Origin: Candidatus Hermodarchaeota archaeon
Lineage (GTDB): Archaea; Asgardarchaeota; Heimdallarchaeia; Hodarchaeales; Hodarchaeaceae
Assembly: GCA_048886185.1 (NCBI GenBank)
Contig: JBHLKY010000009.1
Span: forward strand, 60,001-92,000
Direction: 5' to 3'
DNA length: 32,000 nucleotides
The translations under genes and the position numbers were made by a program. Positions 1 to 10,638 of this stretch are shown piece after piece. The number at the start of each line of letters is the position of its first letter. Within the stretch, counting starts at the first letter, position 1. Below the pieces are notes generated by a model. That model saw nothing but the letters and a program-made list of their open reading frames with translations. It was not told the DNA's origin and searched no databases.

Positions 1-807
1 GCCTGTACAGTGATCATCTGTAACAAAAGTTGCTCCTAAATCTTCAACCATTGATATAAATTCAGTATCATCATCTTCAGAACCCAAAATCATCAATCTC
101 TCACCTGGAGCCTTAATATTTCTTGAAGGAAGCTCTTGAAGCAGTAATTCCAGAGCTCGATTGTGTTCCTTTTTATCAGTCATTTGACTCGAAACAACCA
201 TATACATTGCTTCAAGGCCTGTCAGAGGTGGATTTGCACCCTTTCTAAGATCATAAACTTGCTGTATAAGCCGTCTGTTTGTGTTCATGAGCTCGATTCC
301 TCGTTTAAGATCATCATCAGTAATGGGTCGGCCTATCCATTTTTCTACGGAAGCCTTGAATTGAACTAGTTCCTCTCGTAAATAGGGGATAGCACGAGGA
401 CTTTGAACATGCATTGGATGGGGTAAATAATAGCTATAATCGGTCGGGATATGAATATCCCAGCTAGTGAATGCTTGTCTGATATGAAGGCAGCTCTGAG
501 CGATCATTATCCCATCAAGATAATCAAAACGTCCTTTTAAACCCTGTGCTAAGCAGTCACGACAAAAAGGGCAAAACATAGCAAAAATATGTGGTTCAGT
601 AACATCTTGCGGTTCATGACTCCCTAGAATGCGAACAGGAAGGATATCTGCAGCATATAATATTTCTTCAGGGACATAGGTACAAAAGTACCCCATTACT
701 TTACCTCCAGTACGCTTTTTCCATGTCATTGCGTAGTCATGTCGGTTCTTGTACCAATCCTTAAATTGGTCAAACAGGCCTGATTTTTCTTTTTGTACAA
801 GTTCCAT
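1..807 (-). CDS. bzdN: Benzoyl-CoA reductase, bzd (Azoarcus)-type, subunit N (BcrC/2-hydroxyacyl-CoA dehydratase-like); 3' end runs off the window start
   Basis: Manual translation of the minus strand from ATG 807 (AGGTG RBS upstream) is open to base 1: MELVQKEKSGLFDQFKDWYKNRHDYAMTWKKRTGGKVMGYFCTYVPEEILYAADILPVRILGSHEPQDVTEPHIFAMFCPFCRDCLAQGLKGRFDYLDGIMIAQSCLHIRQAFTSWDIH...LMILGSEDDDTEFISMVEDLGATFVTDDHCTG. The FCTYVPEE, CPFCRDCLAQGL and SCLHIRQ motifs match BzdN as I know it. Not in the ORF track because the stop is outside the window. Confidence 0.9.
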   Translation of the reverse strand, partial: MELVQKEKSGLFDQFKDWYKNRHDYAMTWKKRTGGKVMGYFCTYVPEEILYAADILPVRILGSHEPQDVTEPHIFAMFCPFCRDCLAQGLKGRFDYLDGIMIAQSCLHIRQAFTSWDIHIPTDYSYYLPHPMHVQSPRAIPYLREELVQFKASVEKWIGRPITDDDLKRGIELMNTNRRLIQQVYDLRKGANPPLTGLEAMYMVVSSQMTDKKEHNRALELLLQELPSRNIKAPGERLMILGSEDDDTEFISMVEDLGATFVTDDHCTG

Positions 808-837
808 CAATTTGAACACCTTTCAATGTTTGATTCT

Positions 838-1293
838 TTACAACTCCTTCATTAGAGTGATAAATCCACTTTTTTTCATTCCCAAAGTCTTGAAGAACTC
901 GAGAAGATCACTAGAAGTCCAATCAACAGTTGTATAAACAATATTGATTCCACGGGATTTGAAGTCCTTAAGGAGTCTTTCTCCGAGTTTTTTTCCAACC
1001 CCTTTTGCTGTATGTGAGGGATCCACACCTAACATTTCGATCCACCCTCCGTTCTCGACACCAAATAGCCAAGGATGGATGGTTGCCATCATAAATCCTA
1101 CAACATTACCCCCAATTTCAGCAATTAGATTAATACTTTCAGGTCGACTAAGATAATGTTGAACTTGTGATTTCCACATAATTGGACGGTGAGTACGAGT
1201 GATTTTCTCATCAATAGCTACAACTGAAGAAATATCGTTTTCTACCATTTTCCTAACAAAGATATTATCTTCAGTTATGTTCATTGTAAACAT
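838..1293 (-). CDS. GNAT-family N-acetyltransferase
   Basis: 151 aa with GNAT pattern: VRKMVENDISSVVAID, LIAEIGGNVVGFM, WIEMLGVDPSHTAKGVGKKL (motif A), LLEFFKTLGM (motif B). Confidence 0.88.
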   Translation of the reverse strand: MFTMNITEDNIFVRKMVENDISSVVAIDEKITRTHRPIMWKSQVQHYLSRPESINLIAEIGGNVVGFMMATIHPWLFGVENGGWIEMLGVDPSHTAKGVGKKLGERLLKDFKSRGINIVYTTVDWTSSDLLEFFKTLGMKKSGFITLMKEL

Positions 1294-1305
1294 CTCTTGA
1301 CTTTT

Positions 1306-1533
1306 TCATTTTTTTTCCTTGTTTTGGTCATTCCTTTTCTTCTTGGAAACACGTATTATCTTAACACGAGAACCTATCCAATCCCTTGGTAAATACACAC
1401 GCCCAGTATTACCACTTTGTCTCACTTCCCGATCAAGCATTTCAAAGCCGAAAACCTTGAACTCAGAAGGCTGATCCTCAACTTTAAGCTCAGATGAGTG
1501 GTCTTCACTGGATTCGCTCAAAAGAAACACCAA
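1306..1533 (-). CDS. DUF2080-family small protein (AbrB-like swapped hairpin)
   Basis: Core FKVFGFEMLDREVRQSGNTGRVYLPRDWIGSRVKIIRV matches the DUF2080 pattern (SGNxGRVYLPxxWxGxxVKIIR). 12 nt upstream of the GNAT start. Exact start uncertain. Confidence 0.8.
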   Translation of the reverse strand: MVFLLSESSEDHSSELKVEDQPSEFKVFGFEMLDREVRQSGNTGRVYLPRDWIGSRVKIIRVSKKKRNDQNKEKK

Positions 1534-1962
1534 ATATTAGCCCAAGATTGATAATTTTTGCGAACACTTGGGAAAAAACTGTTAAAGCTTCTAATCTGTA
1601 ATTCAAAGAATAATTAAAAAGATTTTGTTATACTAAGTTATGTTATAATTACAATGGATTATAATTGGATTATGAATCAGCCACTTTATTAAAAAGGATG
1701 GTATAACTGAGTCTCTCTGGAATCATAAAAACAGATCCCTATTCACTGTAAGTGGCTATTTATATTAAATTCAGTCTGTGTGGCTTTGTAGTGAGTATCT
1801 AAAAGAAAGAAGTTGGATTTACTAGGAAATCGCCTTTGTATCTTCGATTAGACTGTCAAAGACTCTCATCAAAGTTGAAAGAGATGATATTGGACTCAAG
1901 AAAGTTTCCTCATTTTGAGCAATTCTTATATTTTTAAGACAAAAAGGAAAGCTTCGAGACTT

Positions 1963-2244
1963 ATGGTTGGAAAATTAAAGATACTTTTTCATGCAACCTT
2001 TAGAGAAGTTGCTGGAAAAAGAGAAATTGAAGAAAAACTTAACAAAAAGACTACTGTGTATGATGTCATCGATAATTTAGCTAAAAAATATGGAAAGGAT
2101 TTCAATGACATAATCGATCCAGAAACAAATAAAATTTCTACTGAAGTTTTAGTCCTGCTTAATGGGCGAGGTATTAGAACGACAGATTTAATACTTAAAG
2201 ATCAAGATGTTTTAATAATTACGCTTCCTCTTGGCGGTGGTTAA
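1963..2244 (+). CDS. moaD: MoaD/ThiS/SAMP-type ubiquitin-like sulfur carrier
   Basis: LKILFHATFREVAG N-terminus, VLVLLNGR and C-terminal LPLGGG. ATG 1963 preferred over the track start at 1915. Confidence 0.88.
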   Translation: MVGKLKILFHATFREVAGKREIEEKLNKKTTVYDVIDNLAKKYGKDFNDIIDPETNKISTEVLVLLNGRGIRTTDLILKDQDVLIITLPLGGG

Positions 2245-2264
2245 GAGAGAAAGGTGATTATATT

Positions 2265-2408
2265 TTGAATGAAGTTAGATGTTTAAACTGTTTGAAACAC
2301 TTTGAGGTTCAATTAATGGCTGAAGAGGCTGCTTGTCCCAACTGTAAGACTCGGTATCGGATTTCTTGGCCCAGACCAGATCAACCTAAGATTCGTGGGT
2401 CAGTCTAG
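2265..2408 (+). CDS. 47-aa zinc-ribbon/rubredoxin-like microprotein (not in ORF track)
   Basis: AGGTGA RBS (2252-2257), TTG start: MNEVRCLNCLKHFEVQLMAEEAACPNCKTRYRISWPRPDQPKIRGSV*. Two CxxC pairs, and it fills the gap between moaD and the AOR gene. Confidence 0.8.
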   Translation: MNEVRCLNCLKHFEVQLMAEEAACPNCKTRYRISWPRPDQPKIRGSV

Positions 2409-2430
2409 TTAAACGCTTGAGGCGAAATAG

Positions 2431-4332
2431 ATGGTTTGGAAAAAGAAAGTAGCTTTTATAGATTTATCAACAGGAAAAATAACTGAGAAAATAATTCCTA
2501 AATCATTCAGGAAGCAATATCTAGGTGGCCGAGGGATAAATGCACACTATATGTACAATCGAATACCACCTGGAATTGATCCATTAGGACCACAAAATGC
2601 TTTACTTATTGGTACTGGGTTACTTACAGGAATTCCCGCTCTTGGCGCTGGTAGATGTGATATTGCAGCAAAATCCCCATTGACAGGAGCAGTTGGAGAC
2701 TCTAATATAGGGGGATTTTTCGCGCCTGAAATGAGATTGGCTGGTTTTGATCATTTAGTTATAACCGGGAAGGCAGAAAAACCTGTTTACCTCTGGATTC
2801 ATGATGGAGAGATAGAAATCTCCAATGCAAGCCATCTTTGGGGAAGTGACACATTTAAAACACAAGATCAGATCCGTTCCGATCATAATGATGAAGAAAT
2901 CAAGAGTCTAGTAATTGGTATAGCAGGTGAAAAGCTTGTACGTTATGCTAACGTAAGAACTGGCATGAAAAACTCTGCTGGGCGGACTGGAATGGGCTGT
3001 GTCATGGGTTCCAAGAATTTAAAAGCTGTTGCAGCTCGTGGAACAATGGATATTGAATTCTCATATCCCGAGGAATTATTAGATTATTGTGCTGCAATGA
3101 ATGAGATGATTACGAATTCTCGATGGGCAAGGGCACAATCAAAATGGGGTACACTTATTATTTATAGTAATACAAATACAACAGGATTGATCCGTACACG
3201 AAACTTCCAAAAGAATCTGTTAGAGGATGGGGAAGATCTAGAACCCGAAAATATGGACCGATATACGATTGGTATGTCTGGGTGTTATGGTTGTAGTGTT
3301 CATTGTCGCCACCGATATGTGTTGGAAGATGGGCCTCATGCTCATTTTGGAGAAGGACCTGAATATACCTCTTTAGGTGCTTTCGGAACAATGGTTGATT
3401 GTAAAAAAATGGAAACAGTCTTGGCTGCAAATCACCTAGTAAATAAGTATGGGATAGATACACTTGAAGTTGGGGGGATCATTGCATGGGCCATGGAGCT
3501 CTGGGAAAAAGGGATCCTAACTGAAAAAATAACCGATGGGTTGACACTCGAGTGGGGAAATGAAGACATTCTTTTTGAGCTTATTCGCAAAATATCCTAT
3601 AGAGAGGGCCTAGGGAACATCCTTGCCGATGGATTCAAACCAGCTATCGCGAAGATTGGTAAAAACTCAAAATATTACGCTATGCAGATAAAAGGTATGA
3701 GTAATCTACACTCTGATGAACGTCCGACACCTAGCTTGGCTTTGAACATCGCTACTGCGACACGGGGTGCAGATCACCTAAGAAGTAGACCAGCTATTGA
3801 CCTTTATGGATTACCTGAAAATCTCTTAGAGGAGATATATGGTGCACCTGTTTCATCTGATTACACTTCATATGAAGGTAAAAGTCGCATGGTTTGGTGG
3901 CAAGAACTTTTATATGCTGTGACTGATTCAATTGGGACATGTAAATTTCAAACGGTCTTCTGTGCCGTTCACGCACCCAAATGGGATGAATTTTCCAAAC
4001 TCATATATCTAACTTCAGGGTTAAACATAGCTAAATCGCAACTTATGGAAATTGGGGAGAGAATTACAACAACTGAACGCTTATTTAACATTCGTGAAGG
4101 ATTCTCCAGAAAGGATGATAACCTTCCAGAACGCTTCTTTAAGGAACCAACACCTATTGGATTTCCTATTGCAAAAAACAAGAAAATTAATAGAGACAAA
4201 TTCAATACAATGTTGGACGAATACTATGCCCTTCATGAATGGGACATAGATGGAGTTCCAACCAAAGAGACCGTTCAGAAACTTGGATTGAAGAATAAGG
4301 ATTCTTTTAAACTAAAGAACGGAGAACTATAA
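2431..4332 (+). CDS. aor: Aldehyde:ferredoxin oxidoreductase family (tungstopterin) catalytic subunit
   Basis: YLGGRG, KSPLTG, GRTGMGCVMGSKNLKAVAARG, CYGCSVHC (Fe-S), GPEY, RGADH, GTCKF, ERLFNIREG...DDNLPERFF, LDEYYALHEWDIDGVP. Confidence 0.93.
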   Translation: MVWKKKVAFIDLSTGKITEKIIPKSFRKQYLGGRGINAHYMYNRIPPGIDPLGPQNALLIGTGLLTGIPALGAGRCDIAAKSPLTGAVGDSNIGGFFAPEMRLAGFDHLVITGKAEKPVYLWIHDGEIEISNASHLWGSDTFKTQDQIRSDHNDEEIKSLVIGIAGEKLVRYANVRTGMKNSAGRTGMGCVMGSKNLKAVAARGTMDIEFSYPEELLDYCAAMNEMITNSRWARAQSKWGTLIIYSNTNTTGLIRTRNFQKNLLEDGEDLEPENMDRYTIGMSGCYGCSVHCRHRYVLEDGPHAHFGEGPEYTSLGAFGTMVDCKKMETVLAANHLVNKYGIDTLEVGGIIAWAMELWEKGILTEKITDGLTLEWGNEDILFELIRKISYREGLGNILADGFKPAIAKIGKNSKYYAMQIKGMSNLHSDERPTPSLALNIATATRGADHLRSRPAIDLYGLPENLLEEIYGAPVSSDYTSYEGKSRMVWWQELLYAVTDSIGTCKFQTVFCAVHAPKWDEFSKLIYLTSGLNIAKSQLMEIGERITTTERLFNIREGFSRKDDNLPERFFKEPTPIGFPIAKNKKINRDKFNTMLDEYYALHEWDIDGVPTKETVQKLGLKNKDSFKLKNGEL

Positions 4333-4333
4333 A

Positions 4334-4816
4334 ATGCTGAAGATATTATTTGTTGATCCAGAAAAATGTACAGGATGCAAAATCTGTGAAAGTGTGTGTT
4401 CCATTCATCAGGAAAAGGTTCTTAATCCCGTTCGAGCTAGAATCCATGTTATAAAATGGGATAACTCCGGTATATACATTCCTATGATTTGTCAGCAATG
4501 TGAGACACCAATTTGTGAATCGGTGTGTCCTATGCGTGCCATACATAGAGATGAGAATAAGGCTCTCATTATTGATTATAATGCATGTGTTGGGTGTAAA
4601 TTATGTGTTACCTTTTGTCCTTTTGGTGGCGTAGGAATAGACAATAAAGGCAAAGTTATCAAGTGTGATCTATGTAATGGTGAACCTCAGTGTGTCAAGA
4701 GGTGTGAACCTAATGCATTACAGTATATTGAAGCAACTTCAATCAATATAAGAAAAAGAAGAGCTGCTGCTGAAAAATTCTCCGAATTATTTAAGAAAAT
4801 ATTGATAGCCACGTAA
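4334..4816 (+). CDS. 4x[4Fe-4S] polyferredoxin electron-transfer subunit (AorA/DmsB/CooF-like)
   Basis: CTGCKICESVC, CQQCETPICESVCP, CVGCKLCVTFCPFG, KCDLCNGEPQCVKRC. Starts 1 nt after the AOR stop. Confidence 0.92.
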   Translation: MLKILFVDPEKCTGCKICESVCSIHQEKVLNPVRARIHVIKWDNSGIYIPMICQQCETPICESVCPMRAIHRDENKALIIDYNACVGCKLCVTFCPFGGVGIDNKGKVIKCDLCNGEPQCVKRCEPNALQYIEATSINIRKRRAAAEKFSELFKKILIAT

Positions 4817-4930
4817 TTTCTTTTATTTTTAAAATTCGTTAATAGAACCAAATAAGAAATAATGAAACAAGTCTATCTAGCTAGATATGGAAAATTTTTA
4901 ATAATTAAGAATTCAGAAGAGAGGATTCTT

Positions 4931-5323
4931 ATGAACAATAAATTAAAACCTCAAATTCGTATGAAAATTAACTCATGTCACTGGGACATTATTCTTAATG
5001 GTTCTAGTCCGAAAACTGGGTCTCAAATTCTTAATCTCTTACCAATTGAAAGTGAAGTGAGAACATGGGGAGAGGAAATATACTTTTCAATCCCTTTAAA
5101 TATGCCAGAAGAAAATTCAAAGAGTACTGTGGCGTTACGTGATGTTGCATATTGGCCAGAAGGGCAATGTTTCTGTGTGTTCTTTGGAAAGACCCCCTTA
5201 ACTTCTACATTAGATGAAATAAAACCTGCGTCACCTGTTAATGTATTTGGAAAGATTTTAGGAGATTTAGAGAGTTTAAAGTTTATTAAATCTGGTTTTA
5301 AGGTTTTTTTGGAACAGATATGA
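4931..5323 (+). CDS. Cyclophilin-like fold protein (DUF369/TM1367-like)
   Basis: TWGEEIYFSIP, DVAYWPEG..FCVFFGKTP, ASPVNVFGKI. ATG 4931 after GAGGA preferred over 4862. Confidence 0.85.
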   Translation: MNNKLKPQIRMKINSCHWDIILNGSSPKTGSQILNLLPIESEVRTWGEEIYFSIPLNMPEENSKSTVALRDVAYWPEGQCFCVFFGKTPLTSTLDEIKPASPVNVFGKILGDLESLKFIKSGFKVFLEQI

Positions 5324-5465
5324 CGATAAAATAAGTTAATACAAGCTTAATCATTATTTGAAGGTACTTTTAACACATGAGAGCTTAAAGATATTTCATT
5401 CGAAAGGAAATTAAAATTTCTGATTATTTATTGAATTTCATAACAGAACGTAATTTGGGATTAAA

Positions 5466-5945
5466 ATGATTAAACAGAAGAAATTTGACGATATTCTAAC
5501 GAGAGCATATAAAAGGATGCACCGATATACTTGTGCAGAAGCCTCACTTCAAGCATTACTAGAATTATGGGATTTGCCTATCGATTCATATTCTTGGGCA
5601 ACTGCGGGCTATTTAGGGGCAATTGGATCAGGAAATACTACATGTGGACTTTTGATTGGAAGTAGTATTGCAATTGGTTTTCAATGCGGACAAGAGATGC
5701 AAGGAGTACCAGAAGAAAATGAGGATGCACGAGAAAAAGCCATTCAGACGATTAATGAGGTGTACAGCGAATTTTTAGAAAAATTTGGGAGTACGGACTG
5801 TAAAACGATTAACAAGGTCGACTTTCGAAATGGAGAAGAGATATCGAAGTGGATGACGCAAAAAGGATGGAAACAAACCTGTGATCTTTTTTTGAATTTT
5901 ACAATGAGAAAATGTCTATCAATGATGGAAGATGGAAAATTATAA
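5466..5945 (+). CDS. C_GCAxxG_C_C family putative redox protein
   Basis: TCAEA, GAIGSGNTTCGLLIG, FGSTDCKTI, QTCDLF. Confidence 0.85.
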   Translation: MIKQKKFDDILTRAYKRMHRYTCAEASLQALLELWDLPIDSYSWATAGYLGAIGSGNTTCGLLIGSSIAIGFQCGQEMQGVPEENEDAREKAIQTINEVYSEFLEKFGSTDCKTINKVDFRNGEEISKWMTQKGWKQTCDLFLNFTMRKCLSMMEDGKL

Positions 5946-10461: not shown

Positions 10462-10575
10462 GTTAGTGAAGTTTAAGAGTAGAAGGTTTTTATTAGTTTC
10501 CTGAATTCAATGTGAAAACCTGTAAGTCATTCTTGATTCATAAATAGGAGTTAAAATCTCATTATTTGTAAATTT

Positions 10576-10604
10576 TGAGGGAATTATAAATTATTATACC
10601 CTCA
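10576..10604. promoter_or_regulatory. 29-bp imperfect palindrome (candidate operator) overlapping a TATA-like element in the divergent promoter upstream of dch
   Basis: TGAGGGAATTATAAATTATTATACCCTCA: 12 of 14 arm positions pair, including the outer TGAGGG/CCCTCA. Confidence 0.55.
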
Positions 10605-10638
10605 TGAAAGAATTTACACAAAGTTATGGTGATAATAA

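What the first reader, a model, noticed from the sequence alone, without database searches (positions are those of the whole stretch)
838..1533. DUF2080 (AbrB-like) + GNAT pair heading the benzoyl-CoA reductase operon: candidate undescribed aryl-CoA-sensing regulatory module
Seen: DUF2080, GNAT and bzdN on one strand with gaps of 12 and 30 nt and no transposase nearby, although DUF2080 is labelled transposon-associated. Established: GNAT folds bind acyl-CoA; the Rhodopseudomonas bad cluster contains the acetyltransferase BadL; GNAT toxins can pair with small DNA-binding antitoxins. Inference: the pair may be a two-part regulator in which the GNAT senses or transfers benzoyl/acetyl-CoA and the swapped-hairpin protein binds DNA. 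No BzdR/BadM-type regulator is visible in the window.
Basis: partly seen in the sequence, partly recalled or inferred. Interest (0 to 1): 0.68.

Follow-up and report, generated by a model that had tools for sequence, protein, structure and literature searches.

The report
DUF2080-GNAT cassette heading ring-reductase operons
A tiny DNA-binder-like protein and a small acetyltransferase-like protein open the benzoyl-CoA reductase operon of this Asgard archaeon; the same two-gene cassette sits in front of both known, unrelated kinds of ring-reducing enzyme in many anaerobic archaea and bacteria, so it is probably an uncharacterised control module for anaerobic breakdown of aromatic rings.

Summary
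On the minus strand lie a DUF2080 gene (1306-1533), a GNAT gene (838-1293) and bzdN (from 819), with gaps of 12 and 18-30 nt. bzdOPQ, a ferredoxin gene and a BzdV-like gene follow, left of the window.

In the host genus (Hodarchaeales) every bzdN locus seen carries the cassette, and two species carry it before BcrC/BcrB-like genes instead. Of the 80 public loci closest to this DUF2080, 73 have the same GNAT subfamily directly downstream. 25 of the 80 continue into bzdN (Asgard, Thermoplasmatota) and 30 into bamB, the class II reductase gene (Desulfobacterota). In an even draw of 251 Desulfobacterota genomes, 33 of 37 DUF2080-positive genomes have BamB, and in 23 of them bamB lies at most 730 nt downstream.

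A second, reductase-independent copy of the pair exists in this genome. Phased 11-bp repeats are enriched upstream of the cassette.

Function remains inferred: most likely a transcription switch analogous to BadM/BadL, with DUF2080 in place of the Rrf2 repressor. AbrB/MazE likeness is only weakly supported, and binding between the two proteins is untested.

This scan has already reported the same cassette in other genomes.

The parts
1306..1533 (-). DUF2080 microprotein gene (longest ORF 75 codons, TTG start; conserved core about 1348-1467)
   Evidence: NF033496 at 60.1 bits. It is 68% identical to the genome's second copy. The core is 45-73% identical to 77 homologues from Asgard archaea, Thermoplasmatota and Desulfobacterota. 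Conservation with orthologues starts at residue 18.
838..1293 (-). GNAT-fold protein gene (151 aa; database orthologues start at the ATG 9 nt downstream, giving 148 aa)
   Evidence: PF00583 E=5e-14. AF2 model has pLDDT 92 and all listed Foldseek hits are GNATs. It belongs to a distinct subfamily with invariant G98, G100, W84, W125, D129, F133-F134 and S142.
1..819 (-). 5' part of bzdN, first catalytic gene of the Bzd-type class I benzoyl-CoA reductase operon; the operon continues left of the window
   Evidence: TIGR03190 gives 489 bits for the whole gene. bzdO scores 696 bits and bzdQ 410 bits. A second activase gene, a ferredoxin gene and an 843-aa BzdV-like oxidoreductase gene follow.
1294..1305 (-). 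12-nt spacer between DUF2080 stop and GNAT start
   Evidence: Read from the sequence. In 73 related loci this spacer is mostly -8 to +40 nt, which is consistent with co-translation.
1534..1963 (.). divergent intergenic region between the cassette and the moaD-like/AOR operon; presumed promoter and operator region
   Evidence: No ORF of 50 aa or more except the extended reading of the moaD-like gene. The region is AT-rich. A block aligning to window 1625-1665 is conserved in congeneric loci.
1655..1673 (-). two exact ATAATCCA octamers at 11-bp spacing, 122-140 nt upstream of the DUF2080 ORF; candidate operator half-sites
   Evidence: this is the only exact tandem in the 32-kb window. Across 80 related loci, a period of 11 stands out for adjacent repeats upstream of DUF2080. 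In this window the evidence is modest: 9 of 11 positions match, in AT-rich DNA.

Best explanation
The DUF2080 and GNAT genes form a conserved two-gene leader cassette of operons for benzoyl-CoA (aryl-CoA) ring reduction, and most probably act as a transcription switch.

Shown: the cassette is co-oriented and tightly spaced. It is inherited together with the reductase genes. It recurs in front of Bzd-type and Bcr-like class I reductase genes in archaea and in front of bamB (class II) in Desulfobacterota.

Inferred:
- The roughly 45-residue DUF2080 core is a MazE/AbrB-like oligomeric DNA binder. It would sit on phased 11-bp direct repeats in its own promoter and autoregulate the operon.
- The GNAT supplies the metabolic input. 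It would use an acyl-CoA either to make a small acylated effector, as BadL does for BadM, or to acylate or bind the microprotein. Either way, reductase expression would be coupled to substrate or acyl-CoA status.
For: 1. Anatomy: gaps of 12 and 18-30 nt, one strand, first genes of the operon.
2. Genus level: all 12 bzdN loci seen in the genus carry DUF2080-GNAT upstream. Four genomes without bzdN have only the other copy. Two species carry the cassette before BcrC/BcrB-like genes.
3. Of the 80 public loci closest to this DUF2080, 73 have the same GNAT subfamily directly downstream. 25 of the 80 continue into bzdN and 30 into bamB; the bamB identification rests on 1020-1270 bits to the solved BamB structure 4Z3W.
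4. Even draw of 251 Desulfobacterota genomes: 78 are BamB-positive, 37 DUF2080-positive and 33 both. Of 58 DUF2080 copies, 35 have the GNAT within -1 to +45 nt. In 23 genomes bamB starts at most 730 nt downstream on the same strand.
5. In three bamB loci the DUF2080 gene remains without a GNAT, which fits DUF2080 being the promoter-proximal core element.
6. The microprotein shares the G-R-x-x-x-P hairpin signature with MazE/AbrB domains: hhalign probability 88% over 14 columns, and sub-threshold PF04014 hits in 7 of 9 proteins.
7. A period of 11 stands out for adjacent direct repeats upstream of DUF2080. 15 of 80 loci reach 90% identity or more, against 0-4 loci for periods 8-10 and 12-14. The window has ATAATCCA twice at 11-bp spacing.
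8. Precedent: the GNAT BadL makes acetamidobenzoates that release the repressor BadM from the benzoyl-CoA reductase promoter, and such GNAT-regulator pairs recur in Geobacter and Magnetospirillum (PMC6191541). The G. metallireducens bam cluster holds an N-acetyltransferase gene, bamK, induced 21.8-fold on benzoate (PMC1924859).
9. The GNAT keeps the invariant G-x-G of the CoA-binding motif.
Against: - No DNA binding, enzyme activity or expression data exist for any member.
- The AbrB/MazE relation covers only 14 columns. The AF2 monomer is mediocre (pLDDT 69) and matched no solved fold.
- A 45-residue core has no obvious ligand pocket, so a BadM-like effector mechanism does not transfer directly.
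- A second, paralogous pair in this genome has the opposite gene order and lies beside a peptidase and a HEAT-repeat gene, not beside aromatic genes.
- Many bzdN and bamB loci lack the cassette: Asgard families f14 and f17, and 55 of 78 BamB-positive Desulfobacterota genomes.
- The cross-domain conservation of the microprotein (45-73% identity) is unusually high for a transcription factor and could instead reflect a conserved protein partner.
- The repeat evidence in this particular window is weak.
- Related genomes are not independent samples.
Confidence: 0.5

Rival explanations
1. The GNAT is an accessory enzyme of the reductase pathway and not a regulator. It might acetylate the reductase, the aryl-CoA ligase or another pathway protein post-translationally. 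Or it might act as a safety valve that moves the benzoyl group from benzoyl-CoA to an amine and so frees CoA. DUF2080 would then be its adaptor, specificity factor or substrate.
For: The closest structural matches of the GNAT model are N-terminal and protein acetyltransferases (Naa60, RimI, NatC, Hpa2) and small-molecule acetyltransferases. The very high conservation of the microprotein across domains suits a protein-protein partner. DUF2080 copies without a GNAT sit inside metabolic operons: AMP-ligase, xanthine-dehydrogenase-family, disulfide-oxidoreductase and carboxyltransferase genes. A hotdog thioesterase gene lies just upstream of the cassette in several bamB loci. Lysine acetylation of aryl-CoA ligases in R. 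palustris is established knowledge that I recall from memory and did not check here.
Against: The pair always occupies the leader position of the operon and is preceded by phased repeats, which is typical of autoregulators. The cassette serves two non-homologous reductases, so it would need a common protein target other than the catalytic subunits. No DUF2080-GNAT or GNAT-BzdN fusion was found. In the ORM2a benzene degrader the two proteins were not detected in proteomes where the Bam proteins were abundant (PMC13101534).
Confidence: 0.25
2. The pair is a type II toxin-antitoxin-like module, with a GNAT toxin and a MazE/AbrB-like antitoxin. It merely persists in, or stabilises, catabolic islands.
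For: A DUF2080-domain protein has been validated as an antitoxin of a nuclease toxin (PMC10440598). CalpT joins a MazF-like domain to a DUF2080 domain (bioRxiv 10.1101/2024.05.08.593097). GNAT toxins paired with small DNA-binding antitoxins are a known kind (established knowledge). The pair has a small bicistronic layout with tiny or overlapping spacers. In the sister family of the host, DUF2080 is followed by an overlapping 61-66-aa ORF in varying neighbourhoods.
Against: Both copies are syntenic and vertically kept across about 20 species of the genus. Across two domains and two unrelated reductase classes the pair is always co-oriented directly upstream of the catalytic genes. It is gained and lost with the reductase genes. 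The GNAT shows no sequence or fold preference for TacT, AtaT or KacT-type toxins. The partner is not an RHH/DUF1778 antitoxin. No mobile-element genes lie nearby.
Confidence: 0.1
3. The adjacency has no joint function: two unrelated small genes happen to be carried along with horizontally transferred reductase operons.
For: The bzd operon has clearly moved between Asgard archaea and Thermoplasmatota (BzdN 58-73% identical), so linked passengers would travel with it.
Against: The same pair precedes bamB, which is not homologous to bzdN. It also occurs in this genome without any reductase gene. The two genes stay together in 35 of 58 copies in an unbiased sample. Both show strong purifying conservation.
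Confidence: 0.03

Closest known systems
BadM/BadL of Rhodopseudomonas palustris, with the Rrf2+GNAT pairs reported in Geobacter metallireducens and Magnetospirillum magneticum (PMC6191541)
   Same: A small GNAT gene is paired with a small DNA-binding regulator gene inside a benzoyl-CoA pathway cluster. In that system the GNAT product controls expression of the benzoyl-CoA reductase operon.
   Different: The partner here is a roughly 45-residue DUF2080 core, not a roughly 150-aa Rrf2 repressor, and no Rrf2 gene is found in this genome. The cassette here is the leader of the reductase operon itself. The effector is unknown.
GNAT-type type II toxin-antitoxin systems (TacAT, AtaRT, KacAT, ItaRT) and the DUF2080-domain antitoxin of the NetFlax network (PMC10440598)
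   Same: A bicistronic pair of a GNAT and a small DNA-binder-like protein, with precedent for DUF2080 as a neutralising partner domain. Autoregulation by the complex would be a natural mechanism.
   Different: Known GNAT toxins pair with RHH/DUF1778 antitoxins. This GNAT has no detectable affinity to them. The locus is syntenic, not mobile, and is tied to catabolic operons.
AbrB / MazE / SpoVT swapped-hairpin DNA-binding domains (Pfam PF04014)
   Same: It shares the Gly-Arg-x-x-x-Pro hairpin signature (hhalign probability 88%), the small size and the expected oligomeric mode. AbrB-type proteins contact one face of DNA, which would fit 11-bp phased repeats.
   Different: The match covers only 14 columns. 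The part after the signature is a single strand, where the known domains have a helix plus a hairpin. No structural match was obtained.
bamK (Gmet_2077), the N-acetyltransferase gene of the G. metallireducens bam cluster (PMC1924859)
   Same: An acetyltransferase gene inside a class II benzoyl-CoA reductase cluster, induced 21.8-fold on benzoate.
   Different: It lies downstream of bamI and not upstream of bamB. Whether it belongs to this GNAT subfamily, or is the GmBadL of PMC6191541, could not be checked here.

Membership tests
DUF2080 (NCBIfam NF033496 / Pfam PF09853) | Profile match above the curated cut-off | tested here: met
   NF033496 scores 60.1 bits against a cut-off of 22. Pfam PF09853 scores 19.1 against 21.5, just below, for the window's copy, while homologues pass at 25-31 bits.
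DUF2080 (NCBIfam NF033496 / Pfam PF09853) | Association with a transposase, as the family name says | tested here: not met
   No transposase was hit among the ORFs annotated in the window or in the left flank. None was found among the annotated neighbours of DUF2080 copies that lack a GNAT in Desulfobacterota.
AbrB/MazE/SpoVT swapped-hairpin superfamily | Sequence-profile relation to PF04014-type domains | tested here: inconclusive
   hhalign gives probability 88.5% but over only 14 aligned columns. PF04014 E-values are 0.005-0.24, below threshold.
AbrB/MazE/SpoVT swapped-hairpin superfamily | Swapped-hairpin beta-barrel fold formed by a dimer | tested here: inconclusive
   The AF2 monomer has pLDDT 69 with two strands. 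There was no Foldseek or VIA match and no PDB sequence match. A homodimer was not modelled.
AbrB/MazE/SpoVT swapped-hairpin superfamily | Sequence-specific DNA binding | not testable with these tools
   The only evidence is indirect: phased 11-bp repeats upstream.
GNAT acyltransferases (PF00583) | GNAT profile match, GNAT fold and the acyl-CoA-binding G-x-G motif | tested here: met
   PF00583 scores 53 bits. The AF2 model has pLDDT 92, with 500 or more GNAT structures at E<=0.001. G98 and G100 are invariant in 69 homologues.
GNAT toxin - antitoxin systems (TacAT/AtaRT/KacAT) | RHH/DUF1778 antitoxin partner and a toxin-clade GNAT | tested here: not met
   The partner is DUF2080. No toxin family appears among the NCBIfam or PDB sequence hits or among the listed best fold hits.
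GNAT toxin - antitoxin systems (TacAT/AtaRT/KacAT) | Patchy, mobile distribution; growth arrest by the GNAT that the partner relieves | tested here: not met
   Distribution: the pair is syntenic in the genus and linked to reductase operons. Toxicity cannot be tested with these tools.
BadM/BadL regulatory pair | Rrf2-family repressor encoded next to the GNAT | tested here: not met
   No PF02082 match in the 96%-complete genome, while the same search hit all 14 control genomes.
BadM/BadL regulatory pair | GNAT orthologous to BadL that acetylates aminobenzoates | not tested
The enzyme activity cannot be tested here.
Bzd-type class I benzoyl-CoA reductase operon (context) | bzdN, bzdO and bzdQ equivalogs above cut-off, followed by a second activase, a ferredoxin and a BzdV-like gene | tested here: met
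   Scores against cut-offs: bzdN 489.3 vs 453.8, bzdO 695.7 vs 448.6, bzdQ 409.8 vs 380.2. The second activase scores 217 bits on TIGR00241.

The most novel reading that the evidence does not exclude
The cassette is a direct acyl-CoA-reading switch. The GNAT would use benzoyl-CoA (or another aryl-CoA) itself as donor and acylate a conserved lysine of the DUF2080 microprotein, or lock onto it. That would release the microprotein from phased 11-bp operator repeats. Ring-reductase expression in archaea and bacteria would then be set by protein benzoylation, not by a ligand-binding repressor. The reductase-independent copy in Hodarchaeales would be a general acyl-CoA-responsive regulator in the archaeal lineage nearest to eukaryotes (the placement is recalled, not checked here).
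Probability: 0.12. Interest if true: 0.85.

Novelty: new variant of a known kind. Interest (0 to 1): 0.62.

Why it matters
Benzoyl-CoA reduction is the central and most costly step of anaerobic aromatic degradation. Its regulation is known only for a few Proteobacteria (BzdR, BadR/BadM/BadL, BamVW, BgeR), and nothing is known for archaea.

A single small cassette that heads Bzd-type, Bcr-like and Bam-type reductase operons in Asgard archaea, Thermoplasmatota and Desulfobacterota would be the most widespread candidate controller of this step. It would also be a marker for finding aryl-CoA reductase operons in metagenomes.

It gives a function-testable context to DUF2080, which is currently mislabelled as transposon-associated. 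It offers a minimal two-protein system (about 50 aa plus about 150 aa) for studying how acyl-CoA status is coupled to gene expression. Cultured carriers exist for experiments: Desulfosarcina alkanivorans PL12 and Dethiosulfatarculus sandiegensis.

Tried and rejected
- Co-folding of the GNAT with DUF2080 residues 18-75 at 1:1: no verdict (score 0.00, controls not run). This is evidence neither for nor against binding.
- Structural identification of DUF2080: Foldseek against the PDB, VIA-align wide, and phmmer/hmmsearch against PDB sequences all returned nothing.
- Rosetta-stone fusions: the long ORFs that seemed to join DUF2080 to the GNAT (L085, L089) or the GNAT to BzdN (L081) are out-of-frame read-throughs, not fusions.
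- Search for the ATAATCCA tandem in other promoters of the window, including 10462-10638: no second exact copy, and the 3-mismatch matches are at chance level. Tandem Repeats Finder found nothing in 1500-2000.
- A profile search of the 5.8-billion-protein set with the GNAT alignment returned only Asgard proteins, because of its word limits, so it could not place Geobacter BamK or BadL.
- I first guessed that BamJ of Geobacter might be a DUF2080 protein. The literature instead describes Rrf2+GNAT pairs there, so I dropped the guess. No paper with 'bamJ' was found.
So I obtained no closer orthologue for promoter footprinting and no RNA evidence for co-transcription.
- The window's AOR (2431-4332) was considered as a BamB. 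I rejected this: it scores 365 bits to true AORs against 254 bits to BamB.
Full report
**What is in the window.** Three co-oriented minus-strand ORFs occupy 1-1533.
- The ORF at 1306-1533 (75 codons from a TTG) matches NCBIfam NF033496, the DUF2080 family, at 60.1 bits against a cut-off of 22. It is just under the Pfam gathering score (19.1 against 21.5).
- The ORF at 838-1293 is a 151-aa GNAT (PF00583, E=5e-14).
- The ORF from 819 downwards is bzdN.
- The gaps are 12 nt, and 18 nt (GTG at 819) or 30 nt (ATG at 807).

The window is G000:C9:60001-92000. Left of it the operon continues with bzdN (489 bits), bzdO (696 bits), an activase gene, bzdQ (410 bits), a ferredoxin gene and an 843-aa BzdV-like NAD(P)/FeS oxidoreductase gene.

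To the right, divergently, lie a moaD-like gene and a true aldehyde:ferredoxin oxidoreductase gene (365 bits to solved AORs against 254 bits to BamB) with its FeS partner. Further on are dch-, had-, thiolase-, SDR-, acyl-CoA dehydrogenase- and ETF-type genes.

Names attached to homologues and to congeneric contigs place the organism in Hodarchaeales (Heimdallarchaeia, Asgard).

**The pair is a unit, and it is duplicated.** The genome holds exactly two DUF2080 genes.
- The second (contig C6, locus L005 6627-6773, 48 aa) lies 20 nt downstream of another GNAT gene (L005 6133-6606).
- The two GNATs are 31% identical over their full length (E=4e-24). The two microproteins are 68% identical.
- That 'type A' locus (M28 peptidase, GNAT, DUF2080, convergent HEAT-repeat gene) has nothing aromatic around it. 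It is syntenic in every genome of the genus where it was seen.
- So the two genes travel together independently of the reductase, in either order.

**Linkage to ring reductases inside the genus.** Of 21 congeneric species genomes, most have two DUF2080 copies.
- Every bzdN locus recovered from the genus (12 genomes including this one) has DUF2080 then GNAT directly upstream on the same strand. GNAT identity is 59-68% while BzdN is 81-90% identical.
- Genomes G005, G009, G011 and G018 have no bzdN hit and carry only the type A copy.
- G001 and G016 also lack bzdN. There the cassette (GNAT 54% identical) stands in front of genes whose best matches are BcrC and BcrB of the Thauera-type class I reductase, at 249 and 273 bits, below the equivalog cut-offs.
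- Other Asgard families with bzdN (f14, f17) do not have the cassette within 1.5 kb upstream.

**Linkage across domains.** A scan of one genome per species (185,579 species) with the DUF2080 alignment found 475 relatives, and the best 80 were fetched.
- In 73 of them a member of the same GNAT subfamily starts downstream of the DUF2080 stop, mostly within -8 to +40 nt. One further locus is the type A arrangement.
- All 13 Thermoplasmatota-type loci continue into bzdN (58-73% identical).
- 12 of the 15 Asgard loci continue into bzdN and 2 into the Bcr-like genes.
- Of the 52 bacterial loci (Syntrophaceae, Syntrophorhabdaceae, Desulfobacterales, Desulfarculia, Syntrophobacteraceae and others), 30 continue into a gene 64-100% identical to the Desulfosarcina alkanivorans protein. 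That protein scores 1270 bits against the solved class II reductase subunit BamB of Geobacter metallireducens (PDB 4Z3W). A bamC-like FeS gene follows.
- Three bamB loci have DUF2080 but no GNAT.
- The remaining bacterial loci lie beside SDR and enoyl-CoA hydratase genes, a phenylacetate-CoA ligase gene, fdhD, or a GlcD-like flavoenzyme gene.
- In Syntrophobacteraceae a second DUF2080 gene sits between the first one and the GNAT gene.

**An unbiased sample.** The top-80 list is biased towards close relatives, so I took an even draw of 251 Desulfobacterota genomes.
- 78 have BamB (E<=1e-150), 37 have DUF2080, and 33 have both. The odds ratio is about 31, but kin are not independent.
- Of the 58 DUF2080 copies, 35 have the GNAT directly downstream.
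- In 23 genomes bamB starts 95-730 nt downstream on the same strand.
- The copies without a GNAT score lower. They lie next to pyridine-nucleotide-disulfide oxidoreductase plus metallo-beta-lactamase genes, a xanthine-dehydrogenase-family gene, AMP-ligase genes and a carboxyltransferase gene. No transposase gene was seen.
- The cassette is therefore common but not universal before bamB (23 of 78 genomes).

**Phylogeny.** A maximum-likelihood tree of 69 GNATs gives these groups:
- Type A is a long separate branch (support 100/100).
- The Asgard reductase-linked GNATs form one clade (96/97), with the Bcr-like-linked one nested inside it.
- The Thermoplasmatota GNATs form several lineages.
- All bacterial GNATs fall on one branch (94/91).

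The class I against class II association thus follows the archaea/bacteria split. The cassette kept its position while the reductase behind it changed kind at least twice.

**What the proteins look like.**
- The GNAT folds confidently (pLDDT 92). It resembles generic N-terminal, protein and small-molecule acetyltransferases, and no GNAT toxin appears among the listed hits. Its subfamily has invariant G98 and G100 (CoA motif), W84, W125, D129, F133-F134 and S142.
- The microprotein has a core of about 40 residues that is 45-73% identical from Asgard archaea to Desulfobacterota, with invariant G, E, G-x-x-G-R-x-Y-L-P, W and I-R.
- Its only detectable relation is to MazE/AbrB domains. PF04014 appears below threshold in 7 of 9 proteins. 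An hhalign comparison with 17 MazE/AbrB domains from related genomes gives probability 88% over 14 columns, the G-R-x-x-x-P hairpin.
- The monomer model is mediocre (pLDDT 69) and matched nothing.

**Upstream DNA.** The 430-nt divergent intergenic region contains two exact ATAATCCA octamers at 11-bp spacing (1655-1673, minus strand). This is the only such tandem in the window.
- In the 260 nt upstream of DUF2080 across 80 loci, a period of 11 stands out. Mean best identity of adjacent units is 0.75, against 0.58-0.72 for periods 8-10 and 12-14. 15 loci reach 0.9 or more, against 0-4 for the other periods.
- Some bacterial loci have clear three- or four-fold arrays, for example TATAGTT-type units in L114.
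- Congeneric loci have CACTTAYAATA repeats at the matching place.
- This fits an oligomeric binder on one face of the helix, but in this window the signal is modest.

**Literature.**
- DUF2080 has been validated once as an antitoxin domain (PMC10440598). It is also the C-terminal domain of CalpT (bioRxiv 10.1101/2024.05.08.593097).
[quoted passage not shown] They were dismissed because they were not seen in proteomes (PMC13101534).
- The G. metallireducens bam cluster holds bamK, an N-acetyltransferase gene induced 21.8-fold on benzoate (PMC1924859).
- In R. palustris the GNAT BadL acetylates aminobenzoates. The products release the Rrf2 repressor BadM from the reductase promoter. Rrf2+GNAT pairs also occur in Geobacter and Magnetospirillum (PMC6191541).
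- This genome has no Rrf2 gene.

**Interpretation.**
- Shown: a conserved, co-inherited two-gene leader cassette of aryl-CoA ring-reductase operons of three kinds, in two domains.
- Inferred: it is a transcription switch in which DUF2080 binds the phased repeats and the GNAT provides an acyl-CoA-dependent input. This would be analogous to BadM/BadL but with a different, minimal DNA binder.
- I put this at about 0.5. An accessory-enzyme or adaptor role gets 0.25, a toxin-antitoxin-like module 0.1, and no joint function 0.03.

**Earlier work in this scan.** Earlier notes show that the same cassette was already followed up in several other genomes with the same conclusion. My tests here were run independently on this window and its relatives.

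Noticed in passing
G000 contig C6, locus L005 6133-6773: A second GNAT-DUF2080 pair exists in the same genome, in the opposite gene order with a 20-nt gap, between an M28 peptidase gene and a convergent HEAT-repeat gene. It is syntenic across the genus. Its 48-aa microprotein is 90-100% conserved in the genus and close to the deltaproteobacterial consensus.
   Followed up: partly
L025 1441-1838 and L027 1450-1859 (sister family of the host): Here DUF2080 (70 aa) is followed by an overlapping 61-66-aa ORF with no family match, not by a GNAT. The neighbourhoods differ (moaC in one, citrate synthase in the other). This layout looks more like a toxin-antitoxin pair.
   Followed up: partly
L090 2914-3909 (Syntrophobacter sp. 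SbD1) and similar Syntrophobacteraceae loci: Two tandem DUF2080 genes precede the GNAT gene; the middle 86-aa ORF is itself DUF2080 (E=6e-4). This suggests a heteromeric binder. The loci are divergent from SDR and enoyl-CoA hydratase genes.
   Followed up: partly
L142 and L210 (Desulfosarcina alkanivorans PL12 chromosome, about 7.18-7.19 Mb): One DUF2080 gene lies 95 nt before bamB without a GNAT. A second DUF2080+GNAT pair lies about 8 kb away on the other strand. This is a cultured strain suitable for experiments.
   Followed up: partly
L048 (G063, a genome assigned to another Asgard family, 9% contamination): It carries the Hodarchaeales-type DUF2080-GNAT-bzdN arrangement, with BzdN 80% identical. 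This could be a mis-binned contig or a recent transfer.
   Followed up: no
window 1915-5945: A divergent operon holds a moaD-like gene, a true tungsten-type AOR gene (633 aa), a 4Fe-4S protein gene, and cyclophilin-like and C_GCAxxG_C_C genes. Seven of the 11 congeneric bzdN loci in the set show the same AOR gene divergent from the cassette, so the shared intergenic region may control both units.
   Followed up: partly
L202, L211, L223, L225, L227, L183 (Desulfobacterota): DUF2080 copies without a GNAT sit as small genes inside metabolic operons: pyridine-nucleotide-disulfide oxidoreductase plus metallo-beta-lactamase, xanthine-dehydrogenase-family, AMP-ligase and carboxyltransferase genes. 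None is next to a transposase gene.
   Followed up: partly
L071/L229 and L072/L230: NCBI titles call these MAGs Thorarchaeota and Heimdallarchaeota, yet the genome collection places them in the same genus as the window's organism. Public labels for this group are inconsistent.
   Followed up: no
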